A stretch of DNA of 20,000 bases from an uncultured virus (IMG/VR IMGVR_UViG_3300047678_000102) (taxonomy: Duplodnaviria > Heunggongvirae > Uroviricota > Caudoviricetes). The position numbers were made by a program, and so were the translations under genes. The stretch lies in the IMG/VR virus record IMGVR_UViG_3300047678_000102. One strand, written 5' to 3'. Of the stretch, positions 3,213 through 18,866 are shown one piece after another. The notes under the pieces were generated by a model, which did not search any database, was not told where the DNA came from, and was given only the letters and a program-made list of their open reading frames with translations. Numbering within the stretch: position 1 is the stretch's first letter; the number at the start of each line of letters is the position of its first letter.

Positions 3213-3572
3213 TTAGTTTGAATTTGAAAAACAATCTATTATACCAACCACCTTATCTAGTACTATCCTACCTAAATCTTCATTAAAATAATTAATAAAA
3301 CAATTATTTACCACTACTAATTCATACCCCTTTTGCCAACACAAAGATTCTTTTATTTGATCAGACTGTTGGCATCTAATTAATCTATCTTGTCCATGTA
3401 TAGGCTTATAATGAAACACCCCATTTAACTCTATTGCTAATTTAATATCTACGACAAATATATCTATTTCTAAACCACCCAATAATTCTCTATTGTTATA
3501 GAGAATTTCCCTTTCTGGATAAATAATTGTTAGTTCTTTTCCAAAAATTCTTCTAATAAAGACCTCACACAT
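3213..3572 (-). CDS. PD-(D/E)XK / Vsr-DUF559-like endonuclease domain; probable C-terminal part of the 3530-4300 gene
   Basis: LEIDIF...LAIELNGVFHY...DQIKESLC..KGYELVVV motif pattern. Confidence 0.75.
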   Translation of the reverse strand: MCEVFIRRIFGKELTIIYPEREILYNNRELLGGLEIDIFVVDIKLAIELNGVFHYKPIHGQDRLIRCQQSDQIKESLCWQKGYELVVVNNCFINYFNEDLGRIVLDKVVGIIDCFSNSN

Positions 3573-4300
3573 CCAAAATCGCCATTTTTATTCCTGTATT
3601 TAGCATTACAAGATTGTGAACAAAATACATTTGTAGAAATATTCTTTCTTCCTATTGGCACAATTAATTGTTTGTCACATTCTCGGCAATTTACTTGAAT
3701 CCTTTCTGTTTCTGGCCCCTTACTTTTATTACTACAATTTCTACTGCAAAATCCAAATTTGTACCCGTTACTTGCAGATTTAAATATAGACCCCTTACTA
3801 CGTAGAAATTGTGTATTACATCTACGGCAACGTATTTCAATCTTATCTTTCATACGTAAATCTAAAAATTCAAATTTAGTTATTGTACTTATACTACTAA
3901 TATTCTCATAAACAGAATCAATGTTGTATTTCTCAGTGTGCCCGCGATACTCTGGATTTTTCCTTTTTGTTAACCAAACATTCACACAATCTCTCGAGCA
4001 TATAATTGGTTTTGCGGTAGTGATTCTCTTAGAAGAAGTTGTAAACATTTTGTTACATATATCGCATTTGATTTCAATTTGTTGGTACTTTTGATGACAA
4101 GGAGGTTTACATTTGATAGAACAAAAACTTGTTTTATTTCTTAATAATGTTCCTTTATTTCTTCTAAACTGTTTTAAACATTTAGGGCATTGAACATCAA
4201 TCATCCTACGATTATTTGCGGATTCAAATTCTTGTTCTGAAGTAATAATTATAAGTTTCGATGAATTAATCATACAATAATTCAAACTTTCCTTTTTCAA
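3530..4300 (-). CDS. Multi-zinc-finger (CxxC...CSxxC repeats) DNA-binding part of a putative homing endonuclease
   Basis: Four CxxC...CSxxC units (CSIKC, CSRDC, CSRNC, CSQSC); the real start may be ATG at 4273. Confidence 0.75.
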   Translation of the reverse strand: MKKESLNYCMINSSKLIIITSEQEFESANNRRMIDVQCPKCLKQFRRNKGTLLRNKTSFCSIKCKPPCHQKYQQIEIKCDICNKMFTTSSKRITTAKPIICSRDCVNVWLTKRKNPEYRGHTEKYNIDSVYENISSISTITKFEFLDLRMKDKIEIRCRRCNTQFLRSKGSIFKSASNGYKFGFCSRNCSNKSKGPETERIQVNCRECDKQLIVPIGRKNISTNVFCSQSCNAKYRNKNGDFGCVRSLLEEFLEKN

Positions 4301-5025
4301 GAACAGACTTTATATCATTTGTTTTTTTACCAGTTCGATGGTCAACAACCAAACTGGTTATATAATTATATGTTCTTATTTTATCCCCCCTTCCTCTGTT
4401 TTTAAAGTCTTTCTCCTTAATTTTTACATAATTCGTATGATTTTGTGTATTGTATAAGTTATTAACCTTGACTGAGAGGATCTTTCTTGCGTCTTTTCTA
4501 TTATGAACTTGGTCCCTACCGTTAATAAACACACATAATCCAGTTGGTAGATGTTTAAGTCGCACCGCAGAATTTACGCAATTCGCATTCCTTCCACCTG
4601 CCTTTTGACTACCAGTTTGAAAAGACTCTTCCAGTTCGTTCTCATTCAGAGCCAGTAACGTCCTTTCTGGAGGAAGGGGCAAAATAGCGACTGAAACCAA
4701 CGATGTCTGCCTGCGACCTTTATGTTCGGTTGGAGGCACTCTTTGTACGCAATGCTTCCCAGCTTCCATTAAGAAAGCCCTACCTGCATTATGTCCAGTC
4801 AGTTTTGCTACGACATGACCATTAGATTGGTCATAAATTTCAGATTTGATGTTGTGACGTGATGCATACTTGACGTATGCAGAGAATAGATCATCTACGA
4901 ACAGTTTAGAATCTGTTCCACCCTCTCCGAATTGCAACTCCAGTATTATTTCTGTTGCATTCTCAAAGAGAGTCCCTCTGGTTATTTAGAGAAACATTAC
5001 TCGAAACTTGTTGAATCTGATTCAT
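4266..5025 (-). CDS. Class I peptide chain release factor homologue (RF1-type, lacking canonical domain 1), joined by a +1 frameshift at 4965
   Basis: EAGKHCVQRVPPTE..GRRQTS, AGGRNANCVNSAVRLKHLPTG, KIRTYNY, VVDHRTG. The leader starts at ATG 5025 (AGGAG SD) or ATG 5214. Confidence 0.85.
4962..4977 (-). promoter_or_regulatory. prfB-like programmed +1 ribosomal frameshift site
   Basis: AGG GAC TCT CTT TGA G; the +1 frame continues ENATEIILELQFGEGG into the release-factor body. Confidence 0.8.
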
Positions 5026-5214
5026 GATACAATCTCCTATGGTAAGATGACTACTAAAACAATTAGACACAACTTGATCAACTTGAGACATTATTTGTTG
5101 TAAATACTTTTTCTTCTCTTCCCAATCATCACCTAAACCCAATCCAACTAGTGGATGGTTATTGTTGTCACTATTAATACCTTTAGATTTCAGAATCCAT
5201 TTTAGAGTTAGCAT
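4963..5214 (-). CDS. Zero-frame leader ORF of the release factor (83 aa, or 20 aa from ATG 5025)
   Basis: Ends QRDSL-TGA at the shift site. Confidence 0.6.
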   Translation of the reverse strand: MLTLKWILKSKGINSDNNNHPLVGLGLGDDWEEKKKYLQQIMSQVDQVVSNCFSSHLTIGDCIMNQIQQVSSNVSLNNQRDSL

Positions 5215-5220
5215 ACCTAT

Positions 5221-5226
5221 ATTATA
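5221..5226 (-). promoter_or_regulatory. Possible -10 box for a leaderless transcript
   Basis: TATAAT 6 nt upstream of ATG 5214; no convincing -35. Confidence 0.35.
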
Positions 5227-5253
5227 GTTTGTAACTAATGAAAAGAAAATGTA

Positions 5254-5706
5254 TTATTCTACTGCCTTTTTGGGTTTGTAAGTGGTTGTCACCAATTTGT
5301 AAGGCATTGTATAAAAAGTAGCCCATACAAACTTTCCTTTAGAATGCGATTGAGCAAATGCTTTTGCGGTTCCCGGATCAATACCAGAATATAAACAAGT
5401 ATACTTACCTCTGATGAACTTTATCTGAAGTTCTTGTTGTTGGGGCCAATACCTAAACCAAGCAACCCAAGAAGATCCTACGTGAAGAGTCATGTTTCCA
5501 TCAACAAATGCGTTTACATCGTCTTCTTTTACTTGATCTATAAGATCATCAATATCCATATCCTCAAAATTTTGAGGAGGTCCTTCTTCTTTCTCTTCTT
5601 CTGGTTGCTTCTTTGAAAAATATTTAGAAGGAACAGAAGAATTCTTCTGTTGTCCTATTCTATTTTGAATCTGTTGTGATATATTTACCGGTCGATGTTT
5701 AGCCAT
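5254..5706 (-). CDS. KTSC-domain protein with charged, probably disordered N-terminus
   Basis: VGSSWV...Y.PQQQELQIKF...LYSGI...F....SKGKFV pattern. Confidence 0.8.
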   Translation of the reverse strand: MAKHRPVNISQQIQNRIGQQKNSSVPSKYFSKKQPEEEKEEGPPQNFEDMDIDDLIDQVKEDDVNAFVDGNMTLHVGSSWVAWFRYWPQQQELQIKFIRGKYTCLYSGIDPGTAKAFAQSHSKGKFVWATFYTMPYKLVTTTYKPKKAVE

Positions 5707-5712
5707 TGTATA

Positions 5713-6054
5713 TTACCAAGTAATATTCAAATACCCTTCAGAAAGCATTTGTGCTACACCGCTTCCTAATCTGCGAAATGTATACACTTGCGCGCCTTGC
5801 ACTCCAGATGTTTGTGAAGATCTAATTTTAGTATTAACGATCCCCAATCCTGAATCTAAGACTGTCATACCACTCACGCCATTTCCATATCCACTAGCAC
5901 AACTAGTTACAATTAATCCGCTTACACCTCCAAAACGGTTTGTGTTTCGCCATTCTAGATTCCATTGGCTGATGCTAGTTGGTGGAACCAACGAAATAGT
6001 GATAGTGCCATCTACTTCAGGTTGTATCGTAATATCAGAATAAATTACTGGCAT
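5713..6054 (-). CDS. Small putative virion structural protein (beta-rich, Ser-Gly-rich)
   Basis: AGAGGAG SD inside the upstream gene end; T/S/G/V-rich; six SG dipeptides. Confidence 0.7.
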   Translation of the reverse strand: MPVIYSDITIQPEVDGTITISLVPPTSISQWNLEWRNTNRFGGVSGLIVTSCASGYGNGVSGMTVLDSGLGIVNTKIRSSQTSGVQGAQVYTFRRLGSGVAQMLSEGYLNITW

Positions 6055-7183
6055 CTTATACAGCTCCTCTTTTTATTTGTGCTAAAAATCGCTTTACTGT
6101 TGGTCCATACCATTTGCCTTTCCCTGTAACAGTGGGATATCCATTTTTATTTAATTGGTCTGCAATCTTCAGGTGGGAAAATCCTTGATTTGACAATATT
6201 TGGACTATTTCCTTCTCTTTAGATAAATCCCTTCTTTTTTCCAACCTAGATTTTACTGCAAGGTGATGTATTCTACTCATCCTTTCACTCAATTCTTGTT
6301 TGTGTTCCCGTGCATACTTTCTTCTACCTGCAGCCATTTTTCGTTTTGTTTCTTCATTTGGAATAGACGGTTTTATACGCCCTGATGCATATCCCTCTAA
6401 TAAAGTCTTTATCATTTTATCTTTCTTTTCTTGAGTCCATTCCATTTCCCCGTTTTCATGCATCTGTTTAAGTTGAGATGCTCCCCGCTGTCTATATTCT
6501 TCAATGTGTTTTCGCACAAACTTCCTGAGATGTTCTCCGGCTGCTCGCCTTTGTCTTTCTGTTTTGGGAAGTTCACTGTTTTGTTTTGCAATTCGTTCCG
6601 AAGCTCTCTTCCTTTGTTCAGGAGTAGCCATTATTCCCAATCTTGTCAGTTCTCTAATCCTTTGTGCAGATCTCATATTTTGCTCTGGGGTATTTAGTTT
6701 ACCCTGTTTGTGTAATAATTTCATTCTTTCACTAGCTGCTCTAGCCATTTCTACAGTATGTGGAGGAGATCCGGCTATTTCATTACAATTGTAACCGTTA
6801 TGATAAGAATCTAATTTTAAAATCCATTTATCTTCGGCAACAATTAAATTTTCCTCTGTGCAAAATTCCAATACCCAAAATTCAAAGGAACTTTTTCCGT
6901 GTTTGTTCCAAGAGTTTTGTAACTTAATATTCTCGTGTTTTCCTTTTTCCAACTGCAGATAATGGCCCCGACACCTATCAACTACACTTTTTGATGACCC
7001 AACGTATCCCTTGTTGGATATAAAATTGTATACAATATATATCCCTGGTTTTCGTAAATTTTTATATTCTATCGTGCCGATACGTGTAATCGGTATCAAA
7101 ACAGAAGTCGGTGGAATTAGTGAAATAGTAATAGTTCCGTCTACTTCAGGTTGAATAGTTATATCTGCGTATATTGGAGGCAT
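5974..7183 (-). repeat. Diverged 81-nt direct repeat (5974-6054 and 7103-7183) encoding the same N-terminus
   Basis: 24/27 aa identical and 60/81 nt identical by manual alignment. Confidence 0.95.
6056..7183 (-). mobile_element. GIY-YIG homing endonuclease with C-terminal recombinase-like HTH domain
   Basis: PGIYIVYN...GYVGSS...R...H..H.N..LQ.SWNKHG..SF.F; GYN; C-terminal IADQLNKNGYPTVTGKGKWY. Confidence 0.9.
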
Positions 7184-16430: not shown

Positions 16431-16814
16431 TTAACCAATTAGACTATCACTTATGGTTTGGGTGTCTATTTTACAATTAAGTTTGGCTGTACATTCTCTG
16501 TATACATCAGCCAACACGCTACTATACCATTTTCCCCTCCCAGAGAGCGTCCTTTGCCCAGTAGAATTGAATATTTTAGCAATTTGTATGAATGAATGCC
16601 CTAAGTTATGTAATTCTACTAACTTATTTGTTATCATTTCTACAACTTTATTTCGATCTCCAAGTTTTTTATTTCTATATTCTGGGTCTTGCCATCTAAG
16701 TTTCGAAGAAACACTTTTTGCTTCTCTAGATTCTTTTGTATTGACTGCCTTTTTATGTTCCTCTGATTGATTCATTTTAACCAATCTTTCCAATTGTTTA
16801 CTTCTTCTTGCCAT
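16431..16814 (-). CDS. C-terminal DNA-binding part (recombinase-like HTH) of the split GIY-YIG endonuclease
   Basis: WQDPEYR repeat shared with the upstream [27 protein letters not shown] parallels the 6056-7183 C-terminus; GAGGAG SD before ATG 16814. Confidence 0.75.
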
Positions 16815-17440
16815 AACTTTCTCCTCATATCTTTCATATTACTTTTAAACTTTTGATCCTTCCACTGTTCTATTGCGTTTTTACTTCTTTTACACCTTTC
16901 TTCATCAGTATAAATCCTATCCCTGCATTGTTCGGAAGATAATTCAATTCTCATTTTCCGAAACTCAGGATCTTCCCAAAGCTTTTTAAGCTTTAGAGAA
17001 GCTCTTTCTTTGTGTAATTTCATATACTCTGGATCTTCATACATTTTCCTCATTTTATTAGAGAAAAACTCTCTCATTTCTGAAGTCCATACTTCTCCAC
17101 CCGGAGTTAAATTATACCCATTAGTATATGTATTTAATTTTGATATCCATTCAACTTCCTGTTTGGGTAACTCACTTTCTACATAACACCCACAAATATA
17201 GAATTTAAATGCCTGTAGTCCATAAATATCCCATTCCCGTTGCATAAAAACATTATCGTGAGTACCTCGTATTAAATACCTTAAATGACATCCCCATCGA
17301 CCACCAATACAATTTGAATACCCAACATATCCTCTGTTTGATCGTGTGTTCCACAATAAATAGACCCCACATTTATTTTTATGTTGTCTAAAACATTTTA
17401 GAGATATGTTGTCTATACATTCAAATTCATCTAAAATCAT
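16772..17440 (-). mobile_element. GIY-YIG homing endonuclease, N-terminal part
   Basis: CGVYLLWN...GYVGYS...RW..H, H.N..MQ.EWD.YG..AFKF, NGYNLTPGGE; ATG 17440 has a GAGGA SD (alternative TTG at 17461). Confidence 0.85.
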
Positions 17441-17453
17441 ATTTAATTCCTCG

Positions 17454-18866
17454 TCATCCAATCAAAGTATCACTTATTGTAGGTGTTGCAGAATATGGAA
17501 ATATAATTTCGCTGGTTTGCACGTCACTAAACATTCTAAAAAGTAGCGTTTGGAAAGTGTTTAATGTCCCACCCGCGCCACGGCTATTTGAATTAAACAC
17601 CCATGCATAGTCGCCTTGGATTAGATTAACCGACCCGCTATGTACCGAATAGAATGGTTCCCAAGTTGATAACTGAGTCATCACTCCCATTCCCATTCTA
17701 TCAAGATAGAAACTTGCTCCGTTAGTATAAGGAGTAGTTTGAGTAAATCTAAAATATTGGCTCGTAGGTAGTATTATAGGTGTTCTAAACACTCCAGTAA
17801 AGGCAGCATAATTTGTAGTGAGTGTAGATAAATCAATTGTAAACGAGTTGTTATTTCCAGCAGCGTCTGTTATGACATTGCTATTCTGATCAATTAAATC
17901 TACAGTAAGAATACCAGTAGCAGCATTACCATCTCTACGCATAAACAAACAAACAGAATACTGAGTTAATGGTAGTAATGTACCACTAGTACCATCTTGA
18001 CTATTTCCAAATTCTTGCTCTAATTGAATTTGTGTTACACCATTTCCTAAAAACTGTATAGATTCCCCTGGTCCATAAGTCAAAGATGCTTCTGCAAAAA
18101 TATTAGTTCCTGGAGTTCCAACTATAATATCCCAATTATCTGGAGTGTTAGCTATTGTATAAGTATCAAACCCACTATTTGTAAGTATATTACCACTTGC
18201 ATTATCTTGACTTCCGTCGATGGCGTTGATAAAATTTGTAGCATTACTACCTAATGGCCAGTTGAAGTCAAAAGGACTTGCAGCACCAGTACCAGTAATT
18301 GTAAGACCTTCATTACCAGCGGTCGCCCCACCGATATAAGAATCTTGTGTGCAAAGAATCTGTGTGGTTTCAGCAAATATATTTTGTAGAATCAAACCAT
18401 CTGTTGGCCGATTTACAGAAGTAATGACTATACCATTACCAACCCCAGTAAAATTTGGCCCTGGATTAGACACAATTTGAGGTATTGATGATACCGTCTG
18501 CTGTAGTATAGTTGCACCAGCAATTTTCATCTGTCTAATAACTTCATTGATAGAAGTTAATGTATTTAATTGCGTCAGTGTTAGAGATATCTGAGGATTA
18601 TCCCTAAACACCATTCTGTTAATTGTTTGATCTGCTACTTGTGAAGCAAGATTTCCAATAGAATCGGAATTCAACTGAGAAATATATGCACTACCAACAA
18701 TTGCTTGAATATCAGATTCTGCATTAAATTGCGCTACTATACCAGTAGTAGTGTTAGTTAGATTTTGTAGCTGTGCGGATTGATTGATCCTCATCTGACT
18801 GATAGATAATCCGCATTTTCCAAGTCTATTAAATAAGTTACCTGTCGCATTTGAGAACGAAATCAT
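17454..18866 (-). CDS. Putative virion structural protein with a carbohydrate-binding-like jelly-roll region
   Basis: T/N/G-rich; NILTNSGFD......PDNW pattern typical of CBM4/9-like domains. Confidence 0.6.
   Translation of the reverse strand: MISFSNATGNLFNRLGKCGLSISQMRINQSAQLQNLTNTTTGIVAQFNAESDIQAIVGSAYISQLNSDSIGNLASQVADQTINRMVFRDNPQISLTLTQLNTLTSINEVIRQMKIAGATILQQTVSSIPQIVSNPGPNFTGVGNGIVITSVNRPTDGLILQNIFAETTQILCTQDSYIGGATAGNEGLTITGTGAASPFDFNWPLGSNATNFINAIDGSQDNASGNILTNSGFDTYTIANTPDNWDIIVGTPGTNIFAEASLTYGPGESIQFLGNGVTQIQLEQEFGNSQDGTSGTLLPLTQYSVCLFMRRDGNAATGILTVDLIDQNSNVITDAAGNNNSFTIDLSTLTTNYAAFTGVFRTPIILPTSQYFRFTQTTPYTNGASFYLDRMGMGVMTQLSTWEPFYSVHSGSVNLIQGDYAWVFNSNSRGAGGTLNTFQTLLFRMFSDVQTSEIIFPYSATPTISDTLIG

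What the first reader, a model, noticed from the sequence alone, without database searches (positions are those of the whole stretch)
4266..5214. Phage RF1-type release factor expressed through an RF2-type (prfB) +1 frameshift at CTT-TGA
Seen: the leader ORF ends AGG GAC TCT CTT TGA G. Skipping one base gives ENATEIILELQFGEGGTDSKLF, which restores the conserved strand preceding the AGxGG-type loop of class I release factors. That frame has a TAA eight codons upstream and no ATG, so the strand is reachable only by shifting. From the SD-led ATG at 5025 the leader is 20 codons and the product 252 aa. Known: bacterial prfB uses an SD-like element, a 3-nt spacer and CTT TGA C to autoregulate on RF2 level. 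The body here is RF1-like (QRVPPTE = PxT; KIRTYN) rather than RF2-like (SPF), so it should not read UGA. Inference: this is not autoregulation but a sensor of host UGA-termination (RF2) activity that switches on a phage factor acting at UAG/UAA. Caveat: the base after TGA is G rather than C and the SD-like element is imperfect.
Basis: partly seen in the sequence, partly recalled or inferred. Interest (0 to 1): 0.93.

Follow-up and report, generated by a model that had tools for sequence, protein, structure and literature searches.

The report
Frameshift-gated short phage release factor
A phage gene for a shortened RF1-type translation-termination factor can only be read if the ribosome slips one base forward at a stop codon, and the same slip signal is kept in nearly all of about a hundred related genes, often twice in a row.

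Summary
On the minus strand an SD-led ATG (5025) opens a 20-codon leader ending CTT TGA G (4968-4962). The +1 frame then runs 232 codons (4964-4269) and encodes domains 2-4 of an RF1-type release factor. That frame has no usable start codon.

This is not an error. Contigs from other samples carry identical sequence. Of 79 distinct homologous loci, 73 have CTT+stop at the same junction (42 TGA, 30 TAG, 1 TAA), against 0 of 51 stops in the control frame. All 25 family members in a separate set from genome bins also have it.

- 32 loci carry two prfB-like cassettes in tandem.
- The stop codon flips among near-identical relatives.
- Four loci have the cassette about 30 codons further in.

An RF2-only sensor is therefore not a family trait. 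The better reading is a gate set by how slowly stop codons are terminated. The window's copy uniquely has GGR in place of GGQ.

I found no description of this in print for RF1-type or phage factors. The nearest precedent is the Mimivirus eRF1 gene. This scan noted relatives on other DNA before. No expression data exist.

The parts
5034..5038 (-). Shine-Dalgarno AGGAG, 8 nt before the leader's ATG
   Evidence: Read directly. The scripted SD check lists AGGAG for the ATG 20 codons before the stop.
4966..5025 (-). Leader ORF of 20 codons (MNQIQQVSSNVSLNNQRDSL), ending in the P-site codon CTT (4968-4966)
   Evidence: Most single-site relatives have SD-led leaders of 17-23 codons, which fits ATG 5025 better than the upstream ATG 5214.
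4974..4978 (-). Internal SD-like GAGGG, 5 nt (ACTCT) before CTT. This is weaker and further away than the 3-nt spacing of the prfB cassette.
   Evidence: An SD-like 4-mer lies 2-6 nt before CTT in 33 of 73 final sites and 32 of 32 first sites, against 146 of 1460 random body positions.
4962..4968 (-). +1 shift site CTT TGA G. The tRNA-Leu on CUU re-pairs with UUU, T 4965 is skipped, and the next codon read is GAG.
   Evidence: The same CTT+stop occurs at the homologous junction in 73 of 79 loci and in 25 of 25 fresh loci.
4269..4964 (-). Body of 232 codons: RF1-type domains 2, 3 and 4. There is no domain 1 and no start codon of its own. The stop TAA is at 4268-4266.
   Evidence: Pfam PCRF plus RF-1. 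NCBIfam RF1 positions 102-329 of 347. Thermus RF1 residues 106-329 of 354, E 2e-33. The AlphaFold model has pLDDT 89.7 and matches ribosome-bound RF1 with TM 0.78-0.81.
4986..4988 (-). TAA that closes the body frame eight codons upstream of the junction
4728..4736 (-). CCT CCA ACC = Pro-Pro-Thr, the PxT-type stop-codon recognition tripeptide (RF1 type)
   Evidence: It aligns to PVT of Thermus RF1. The tripeptide is PPT in 59 of 92 distinct family proteins.
4590..4598 (-). GGT GGA AGG = Gly-Gly-Arg at the position where the family and all release factors have the catalytic GGQ
   Evidence: The column reads GGQ in 89, GGR in 1 (this window) and GGL in 1 of 91 proteins that have it. The letters are confirmed by a contig from another sample covering 4515-4752 with 0 differences.
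5026..5214 (-). Upstream stretch in which the leader frame is also open (from ATG 5214, 83 codons in all). It is probably untranslated 5' region, but this is not settled.
   Evidence: It has no Pfam or NCBIfam match, and ATG 5214 has no SD.

Best explanation
The minus-strand stretch from 5025 to 4266 is one phage gene for a 252-aa RF1-type class-I release-factor paralogue that lacks domain 1. Ribosomes start at the SD-led ATG 5025 and translate 20 codons. With tRNA-Leu on CUU in the P site they meet UGA in the A site. If UGA is not quickly recognised by a release factor, the P-site tRNA re-pairs one base forward (CUU to UUU) and translation continues in the +1 frame through domains 2-4. Otherwise a 20-residue peptide is released. 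Synthesis of the factor is therefore gated by how slowly that stop codon is terminated, which is the logic of bacterial prfB. The gate is a family trait of a large group of such genes in large phages and in some bacterial chromosomes. It may use UGA, UAG or, rarely, UAA, and it is often built twice in tandem. Three things are shown here: the sequence anatomy, the lack of any other way into the body frame, the conservation of the slip signal, and selection on its context. Three things are inferred: that ribosomes really shift, that the shift rate responds to RF1 or RF2 activity, and that the product releases peptides at UAA/UAG. In this window the single UGA site would report on RF2-type activity, and the product, if active, would add RF1-type capacity.
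For: (1) Anatomy: as set out in the observation check.
(2) No other entry. The body frame has no ATG, GTG or TTG between its upstream TAA and the conserved strand. Most of the relatives listed also show no canonical start near the junction.
(3) Not an error. Contigs of runs from other samples match 4749-5148 and 4515-4752 with no differences and no indels.
(4) Conservation. I examined 104 sources: the window plus 103 loci. Thirteen were duplicates, 11 lacked the N-terminal part and 1 had too little upstream sequence, leaving 79. Of these, 73 have CTT+stop at the junction (42 TGA, 30 TAG, 1 TAA), 3 have an in-frame TGA instead, and 3 have a plain SD-ATG start.
(5) Controls. In the other frame 0 of 51 stops are preceded by CTT, and the background is 2.7%.
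(6) Fresh set. The genome-contig scan gave 78 loci. The 25 that score 231 bits or more against the family profile (next best 195) all carry CTT+stop: 5 TGA and 20 TAG. Two are duplicates of earlier loci.
(7) Context selection. The base after the stop is C rather than T at 46:5 where both are synonymous, against 512:543 for the same codons inside the bodies (Fisher p 1e-9). All 32 first sites have GG(G/A)GG, then T, two bases and CTT (GTT in 2 of them).
(8) The cassette has been rebuilt elsewhere. L090, L102/L103 and L121 start directly at the strand and carry CTT+stop about 30 codons later.
(9) The tree shows the trait throughout the family, with the non-frameshift forms nested inside it.
Against: There is no direct evidence of the shifted product: no RNA run was listed and no proteomics were available. 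The window's site is a weak example of the cassette, with the SD-like element 5 nt rather than 3 nt upstream and G rather than C after the stop. Its catalytic loop reads GGR instead of GGQ, with a further Lys-to-Cys change nearby, so this copy could be losing or changing function. Three relatives manage with an ordinary start (L035, L063, L064), so the gate is dispensable. The stop identity is interchangeable and does not track the recognition tripeptide. That weakens any reading in which one particular release factor is sensed. It is equally compatible with the stop being merely a slow codon that sets a fixed low yield. The hosts are unknown, so the tRNA-Leu and anti-SD behaviour assumed here is borrowed from E. 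coli.
Confidence: 0.75

Rival explanations
1. The frameshift is real but works as a fixed attenuator, not a sensor. The stop is only a slow codon that sets a constant low yield of a factor that would be harmful in excess, and two cassettes in tandem simply lower the yield further.
For: Stop identity flips freely among close relatives and does not track the recognition tripeptide. Tandem cassettes multiply two efficiencies. In passages read, PMC12421855 reports that over-expressed RF1 and RF2 both reduce fitness in B. subtilis.
Against: TAA, the stop read by both release factors, is strongly avoided at the final site (1 of 73). The weak-termination context (C after the stop) is selected. A gate built on a stop codon inside a release-factor gene is exactly the arrangement shown to be autoregulatory for prfB. 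A sense-codon hungry site would serve a pure attenuator equally well, yet none is seen.
Confidence: 0.25
2. The product is not a stop-codon release factor. It is a rescue-type peptidyl-tRNA hydrolase for stalled or damaged ribosomes, in the manner of PrfH or ArfB, and is made when termination or elongation is disturbed during infection or attack.
For: It lacks domain 1, like PrfH. The residue aligned to Thermus 'RIHTS' His is Gln in 53 of 91 family proteins. In several phages the gene sits among tRNA genes.
Against: The PrfH model scores 41 bits against a cut-off of 167, while RF1 scores 176. PxT, the Gln before it, the Thr-Ser after it and the GxGG tip are all kept. No RtcB was found among the window's ORFs or among the 25 flanking ORFs of nine loci scanned. 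Earlier AI notes of this scan, which I did not check, report CPR bacteria that use a domain-1-less RF1 as their ordinary RF1.
Confidence: 0.15
3. The window's copy is a decaying or dominant-negative gene. With GGR in place of GGQ it binds stop codons but releases poorly, so it either does nothing or acts as an anti-terminator.
For: It is the only GGR among 91 family proteins, and it has a neighbouring Lys-to-Cys change. A homing-endonuclease-like gene overlaps its 3' end.
Against: The ORF is intact over 232 codons. All other invariant columns are kept and the shift site and SD-ATG are intact. The same letters occur in contigs from other samples. From recall, not checked here: many substitutions of the GGQ glutamine reduce peptide release only modestly.
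Confidence: 0.12
4. There is no frameshift. The body is translated on its own from TTG 4937, or from a non-canonical start, as a 223-aa protein, which is how gene callers annotate it. The leader is then a separate small ORF.
For: Public gene calls give exactly this 223-aa product, and the relatives listed are of similar length, 207-300 aa.
Against: TTG 4937 lies inside the first conserved strand and has GGAG directly abutting it with no spacer. For L001, one search lists no start before a GTG well downstream, beyond the first helix. This model explains neither the CTT+stop conservation in 73 of 79 and 25 of 25 loci nor the tandem cassettes.
Confidence: 0.04
5. It is a sequencing or assembly indel, or a dead pseudogene.
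For: A single extra T would produce the same picture.
Against: Contigs from other samples are identical. The same break occurs at the same place in about a hundred diverged genes at 40-62% identity, with intact bodies.
Confidence: 0.01

Closest known systems
Bacterial prfB (RF2) autoregulatory +1 programmed frameshift: SD-like element, short spacer, CUU UGA C. Passages read in PMC3711429, PMC12421855 and PMC5009743.
   Same: P-site CUU followed by an in-frame stop, with the +1 ORF encoding a class-I release factor. There is an upstream SD-like stimulator: all 32 first sites have GG(G/A)GG three bases before CTT. C is preferred after the stop, and TAA is rare.
   Different: The product is RF1-type and lacks domain 1, and the site sits just before domain 2 rather than inside domain 1. 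The stop is TAG in 30 of 73 loci, whereas PMC12421855 found TAG in 0 of 8164 prfB genes and no programmed shift in prfA. The stop is often non-cognate to the product. Two cassettes in tandem occur in 32 loci. The cassette position is not fixed.
Mimivirus R726 / Megavirus mg280 eRF1-like gene, which needs UGA readthrough plus a frameshift at CUU UAG C / CUU UAA C (Jeudy et al. 2012, PMC3521657; abstract and passages read)
   Same: A virus-encoded class-I release factor gated by two successive recoding events. It uses the same CUU+stop+C heptamer, and the stop at the shift site differs between relatives.
   Different: That factor is a eukaryote/archaea-type eRF1 in a virus of amoebae, found in two genomes. 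One of its events is readthrough and one a frameshift. Here the factor is a bacterial RF1-type protein in phages and bacteria, found in about a hundred loci, and both events are +1 shifts. Three loci use an in-frame UGA instead.
Release factors of huge and recoded phages (Al-Shayeb 2020, PMC7162821; Borges et al. preprint 10.1101/2021.08.26.457843)
   Same: Large phages carry RF1 or RF2 genes alongside tRNAs and other translation genes.
   Different: Neither paper's main text contains the word 'frameshift' (0 occurrences each). There the factors are discussed as full RF1 or RF2 tied to code change. This window shows no sign of recoding, with code-11 ORF cover of 0.94.
PrfH (RF-H), the domain-1-less release-factor homologue paired with RtcB (Burroughs and Aravind 2019, PMC6514570, passages)
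   Same: It lacks the N-terminal domain but keeps a codon-recognition-like domain and the hydrolase domain.
   Different: The PrfH model scores far below its cut-off. There is no RtcB neighbour. The RF1 recognition motifs are kept.

Membership tests
prfB-type +1 programmed ribosomal frameshift cassette | P-site CUU followed directly by an in-frame stop, with the main ORF in the +1 frame | tested here: met
   The window has CTT TGA at 4968-4963. The same holds in 73 of 79 distinct loci and 25 of 25 fresh loci.
prfB-type +1 programmed ribosomal frameshift cassette | The downstream ORF has no initiation site of its own | tested here: met
   There is no ATG, GTG or TTG between the TAA at 4988 and the conserved strand. 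The first start, TTG 4937, lies inside the strand.
prfB-type +1 programmed ribosomal frameshift cassette | SD-like stimulator about 3 nt upstream of CUU | tested here: inconclusive
   The window has GAGGG 5 nt upstream. The family's first sites meet this in 32 of 32 cases, and the final sites carry some SD-like 4-mer at 2-6 nt in 33 of 73, against 10% in controls.
prfB-type +1 programmed ribosomal frameshift cassette | Weak termination context (C after the stop) | tested here: not met
   The window has G. Across the family's final sites the base is C in 47, G in 16, A in 5 and T in 5 of 73. C is preferred over T at 46:5 against 512:543 in the bodies.
prfB-type +1 programmed ribosomal frameshift cassette | The stop at the site is cognate to the encoded factor, closing an autoregulatory loop | tested here: not met
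   The window pairs UGA with a PxT (RF1-type) product. In the family, PxT proteins carry TGA in 36 cases and TAG in 23. Actual codon specificity was not measured.
prfB-type +1 programmed ribosomal frameshift cassette | The shifted protein product is observed | not testable with these tools
   No RNA run was listed and no proteomics were available.
Class-I release factor RF1 (prfA; TIGR00019 / PRK00591) | Domains 2-4 with RF1-type sequence and fold | tested here: met
   RF1 models score 175.9 and 167.2 bits, above RF2 at 133.8. Thermus RF1 matches at E 2e-33. The model matches ribosome-bound RF1 with TM about 0.8.
Class-I release factor RF1 (prfA; TIGR00019 / PRK00591) | PxT recognition tripeptide | tested here: met
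   PPT at 4736-4728 aligns to PVT of Thermus RF1.
Class-I release factor RF1 (prfA; TIGR00019 / PRK00591) | GGQ catalytic motif | tested here: not met
   The window has GGR. The rest of the family has GGQ in 89 of 91 proteins.
Class-I release factor RF1 (prfA; TIGR00019 / PRK00591) | N-terminal domain 1, and a full-length score above the curated cut-off | tested here: not met
   The match starts at profile position 102 of 347. The score of 175.9 bits is below the cut-off of 400. The leader has no family match. This is a paralogue, not prfA itself.
PrfH (TIGR03072) | Score above the curated cut-off, and an RtcB neighbour | tested here: not met
   It scores 41.2 bits against a cut-off of 166.65. 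No RtcB was found among the window's ORFs scanned against Pfam and PHROGs.

The most novel reading that the evidence does not exclude
Large phages and some bacteria (Melainabacteria, Pirellulaceae) keep a spare, domain-1-less RF1-type factor behind a termination-capacity gauge made of prfB-like cassettes. A UAG cassette reports RF1 activity, including the factor's own. A UGA cassette reports RF2 activity. The common tandem UAG-then-UGA form is then a two-input gate that releases the spare factor only when both host release factors are limiting. This would be the first RF1-type autoregulatory frameshift and the first tandem +1 frameshift switch in bacteria or phages. The window's GGR copy would be a natural catalytic-loop variant of that system.
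Probability: 0.35. Interest if true: 0.9.

Novelty: new variant of a known kind. Interest (0 to 1): 0.82.

Why it matters
Programmed +1 frameshifting at CUU-stop has been treated as the private device of RF2. A 2025 survey of 8,164 prfB genes found no UAG version and no frameshift in RF1 genes (PMC12421855, passages read). The 2016 recoding review calls the RF1 counterpart unknown (PMC5009743, passages read). Here an RF1-type factor family of at least a hundred loci uses the device with UGA, UAG or UAA, often twice in series. Public annotation calls these genes as N-terminally clipped 'release factor 1'.

If the gate responds to release-factor activity, it offers three things. First, a natural way for phages to read the state of host termination. 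Second, a ready-made set of cassettes for testing how stop identity and context set the frameshift rate. Third, a natural experiment on what a release factor can do without domain 1.

It also means that gene calls for this family in phage and metagenome databases are systematically wrong at the 5' end.

Tried and rejected
- RNA structure as stimulator. The terminator scan flagged a stem (4995-4972) that pairs the SD-like element. Folding 5030-4940 gave z = -0.41 against shuffles, so I dropped it.
- Expression evidence. No RNA holder was listed.
- Whole genome of the window: none is held.
- Nucleotide similarity to GenBank phages: no match.
- tRNAs or a suppressor tRNA in the window: none found.
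- Alternative genetic code. ORF cover is 0.94 under code 11, 0.97 with TGA as sense and 0.94 with TAG as sense, so there is no sign of recoding in the window. Reading TGA as sense would in any case keep the ribosome in the wrong frame.
- Link between the stop at the shift site and the recognition tripeptide or the His/Gln position: none found.
- Termination-reinitiation. The window has no start codon in the body frame near the junction, and the nearby ATG is in the third frame and runs into a stop after four codons. Most of the relatives listed show no canonical start near the junction.
- Transcriptional slippage. The T run is only three long.
- The upstream 63 codons (5214-5026) as a hidden domain 1. 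They match no family, and relatives have short leaders.
- Look-up of this scan's notes by sequence: nothing found.
- Homing-endonuclease origin of the break. HNH-like ORFs flank the gene in the window and in only 3 other loci (L012, L017, L086), while the frameshift is nearly universal.
Full report
**What is there**

On the minus strand an AGGAG (5038-5034) precedes ATG 5025 by 8 nt. A 20-codon ORF follows and ends AGG GAC TCT CTT TGA G, with CTT at 4968-4966 and TGA at 4965-4963. One base further on, the +1 frame reads ENATEIILELQFGEGGTDSK... for 232 codons to the TAA at 4268-4266. That frame is closed by a TAA eight codons upstream of the junction. Its first canonical start, TTG 4937, lies inside the conserved first strand.

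Pfam finds the C-terminal half of PCRF plus the RF-1 domain. NCBIfam aligns the body to RF1 positions 102-329 of 347 at 175.9 bits. RF2 scores 133.8, PrfH 41.2, and all are below their full-length cut-offs. The best solved relative is Thermus thermophilus RF1, residues 106-329 of 354, at E 2e-33. An AlphaFold model built on 84 family sequences has mean pLDDT 89.7. It superposes on ribosome-bound RF1 with TM 0.78-0.81.

The product is therefore an RF1-type factor made of domains 2-4 only. The 20-codon leader, and the 83-codon open stretch from ATG 5214, match no family.

The rest of the window is phage. It holds a tail-fibre protein, two GIY-YIG and two HNH-like homing-endonuclease genes, a DNA methyltransferase, a glycosyltransferase and an S8 protease. 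The longest contig on record for the window's own gene call is 131 kb.

**It is not an error**

Logan contigs from four runs match 4200-5300 without a single difference. Two of the runs are probably the source. The other two come from other samples and may be one data set filed twice. Their pieces span the shift site (4749-5148) and the GGR codons (4515-4752). These are contigs at low depth, so this is modest support. The real test is comparative.

**Relatives**

A protein search of GenBank phages found a 595-kb uncultured phage at 52.7% identity. Scans of viral contigs and metagenome contigs added 102 loci. I placed each on a family profile and traced the frames by script.

Of the 104 sources, 13 were duplicates, 11 lacked the N-terminal part and 1 had too little upstream sequence. 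That left 79. They divide as follows:
- 73 have CTT directly followed by a stop in the leader frame at the junction (42 TGA, 30 TAG, 1 TAA).
- 3 (L012, L019, L058) instead have a short SD-led start followed by an in-frame TGA.
- 3 (L035, L063, L064) have an ordinary SD-ATG start.

In the same stretches, 0 of 51 stops in the other frame are preceded by CTT. Over all loci, CTT precedes 2.7% of stop trinucleotides.

A later scan of species-representative genomes gave 78 loci. The 25 that score 231 bits or more against the family profile all carry CTT+stop (5 TGA, 20 TAG). The next best score is 195, from full-length cellular RF1/RF2 with about 100 extra N-terminal residues. Two of the 25 are duplicates of earlier loci.

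1. Thirty-two loci carry two cassettes in series. The script classed 29 cleanly, and 3 more also have an alternative ATG. The layout is an SD-ATG, a 3-18-codon leader (mostly 8-13), CTT+stop, then 10-23 codons in the next frame, then a second CTT+stop, then the body.
   - The first cassettes are textbook. All 32 have GG(G/A)GG, then T, two bases, then CTT (GTT in L053 and L062), then a stop, then usually C. This is the arrangement described for prfB (passages of PMC3711429).
   - First-site stops are TAG in 20, TAA in 7 and TGA in 5. The commonest pairing is TAG followed by TGA.
   - The window's closest relative, L104 at 61% identity, is of that tandem type. It lies on a 49-kb contig binned with a Parcubacteria MAG and shares two further genes with the window.
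2. The stop codon is not fixed. On the protein tree, near-identical pairs differ in it: L013 TAA against L014 TAG, L004 TAG>TGA against L027 TAA>TGA, and L030 TAA>TGA against L028 TAA>TAG. It also does not track the recognition tripeptide. PxT proteins carry TGA in 36 cases and TAG in 23.
3. The cassette can sit elsewhere. L090, L102/L103 and L121 start with ATG directly at the first strand and carry TAT CTT TAG/TGA about 30 codons later.
4. The context is selected. Where C and T after the stop are synonymous in the body frame, sites show 46 C to 5 T, against 512:543 for the same codons inside the bodies (Fisher p 1e-9). TAA is nearly absent at the final site. The three bases before CTT are mostly TGT.
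5. The family is not only viral. In Obscuribacter/Melainabacteria, an Oculatellaceae cyanobacterium and Pirellulaceae bins, the gene lies among ordinary cellular genes such as a sigma factor, MsrA, a dehydrogenase, DprA, a DEAD helicase and MetRS. Those genomes also hold full-size release factors and an ArfB-sized protein. Three of the four genomes show two full-size open frames of 357-405 aa, and one shows one. The short gene is thus an extra paralogue.

**Mechanism**

The shown facts fit the prfB mechanism, with a P-site tRNA-Leu slipping from CUU to UUU while a stop waits in the A site. I can find no other route into the body frame. Reinitiation, transcriptional slippage, a recoded TGA and an RNA hairpin were each examined and rejected.

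That the shift happens, and that its rate falls as release-factor activity rises, is inference from the prfB precedent. The family data support a gate that depends on termination rate: a stop is always used, TAA is avoided, and weak contexts are chosen. They do not support one fixed input.

By the tripeptide rule (recalled, not tested here) a PxT factor reads UAA and UAG. A UAG cassette would then close a true RF1-type autoregulatory loop, while a UGA cassette, as in this window, would depend on RF2. Its weak SD spacing (5 nt) and the G after the stop make it one of the less canonical sites.

The 22 ORFs listed for the window end in TAA 18 times, TGA 4 times and TAG never. An added RF1-type factor would therefore act mainly at UAA. 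One speculative purpose is that this would relieve RF2 for UGA.

**An unexplained point**

The window's catalytic loop reads KAGGRNANC where the relatives aligned read KAGGQN.NK or GPGGQHQNK. Among 91 family proteins with that column, 89 have GGQ, one has GGL and only this one has GGR. The letters are confirmed in another sample's contig. Whether this copy is active, impaired or a decoy cannot be told from sequence.

**Literature**

I searched the held library six times and read passages, not whole papers.
- PMC12421855 reports TAG in 0 of 8,164 prfB frameshift motifs and no convincing programmed shift in prfA.
- PMC5009743 says the RF1/UAG counterpart is unknown and points to a giant-virus release factor.
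- PMC3521657 (abstract and passages) shows that Mimivirus and Megavirus eRF1-type genes need a UGA readthrough plus a frameshift at CUU UAG C or CUU UAA C. This is the nearest precedent.
- PMC7162821 and the preprint 10.1101/2021.08.26.457843 record RF1 and RF2 genes in huge or recoded phages. Neither main text contains the word 'frameshift'.
- PMC6514570 describes PrfH and does not mention phages.
- PMC13037316 mentions only RF2 in recoded jumbo phages.

I did not see supplementary tables of these papers, and they could list such genes. Papers outside the open library were not searched. Within those limits I found no description of a frameshift-gated RF1-type factor in phages or bacteria, or of tandem +1 cassettes.

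**Earlier notes of this scan**

The scan has met relatives before on other DNA. It noted a short phage RF1 behind CUU-UAA-C (e1-5858624). It noted one needing a UAG slip plus an internal UGA (e1-5785144). It noted two gated by an in-frame UGA (e1-5961969, e1-3258985). It also noted CPR bacteria whose ordinary RF1 lacks domain 1 (e1-361105, e1-1125425).

These are unchecked AI notes. They agree with what I find and add the internal-UGA variants. The window itself has no internal stop in its body frame.

**Verdict**

The mechanism is a new variant of a known kind: the prfB device on an RF1-type, domain-1-less paralogue, with interchangeable stops and frequent tandem duplication.

Noticed in passing
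window 3213-4300 (minus strand); L012 2692-3687, L017 2820-3764, L086 615-1262: Two HNH/homing-endonuclease-like ORFs (3530-4300 and 3213-3572) lie directly downstream of the release-factor gene, and the first overlaps its last 35 bases. Homologues of both sit next to the release-factor gene in three other loci, there on the opposite strand to it. This suggests a mobile endonuclease that travels with or targets this gene.
   Followed up: partly
window 5713-7183 (minus strand): The GIY-YIG endonuclease gene (6056-7183) and the next ORF (5713-6054) begin with nearly the same 22 residues, MP(P/V)IY(A/S)DITIQPEVDGTITISL. This looks like a 5' end duplicated by insertion of the endonuclease gene. 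A second GIY-YIG gene lies at 16772-17461.
   Followed up: no
L012 ~1950-2000, L019 ~1960-2000, L058 ~1950-1990: Three relatives replace the frameshift with a short SD-led start followed by an in-frame TGA (for example MKNQ-TGA and MKRR-TGA) and then the body in the same frame. This would be a readthrough-gated form of the same gene.
   Followed up: partly
L090 ~2010-2100, L102/L103, L121 ~2010-2110: In four loci the gene starts with ATG right at the first strand, and the CTT+stop cassette (TAT CTT TAG/TGA) lies about 30 codons inside the body. The cassette has therefore been rebuilt at a second position.
   Followed up: partly
L125, L126, L127, L114, L119, L110, L106 (genome bins G001-G004): Family members with CTT TAG (CTT TGA in L110) lie among ordinary chromosomal genes of Obscuribacter/Melainabacteria, an Oculatellaceae cyanobacterium and Pirellulaceae. 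These genomes also hold full-size release factors, so some bacteria have a third, frameshift-gated class-I paralogue.
   Followed up: partly
L016, L017, L019, L020, L058: In several phage loci the gene sits inside tRNA gene arrays. In L020 a tRNA-Leu(GAG), the tRNA that reads the slippery CUU, ends about 25 bases before the gene.
   Followed up: no
L019 (whole 4681-base locus): ORF cover rises from 0.66 under the standard code to 0.97 if TAG is read as sense. This relative's phage may therefore be TAG-recoded while its RF1-type gene carries an in-frame TGA. The sample is small and tRNA genes fill part of the gap.
   Followed up: no
window, all 22 ORFs listed: Stop codon use is TAA 18, TGA 4 and TAG 0.
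   Followed up: yes
L135 (Eubacteriales-binned 2.5-kb contig): A more distant short release-factor ORF (248 aa, family profile score 171) also has CTT TGA C at its N-terminal junction. The device may therefore extend beyond the family defined here.
   Followed up: no
public protein collection, P0001-P0120: The window's gene is called as a 223-aa protein from TTG 4937, and the 120 best relatives are called at 207-300 aa. Where they carry a name, it is 'peptide chain release factor 1'. Public gene calls of this kind take no account of the frameshift.
   Followed up: yes
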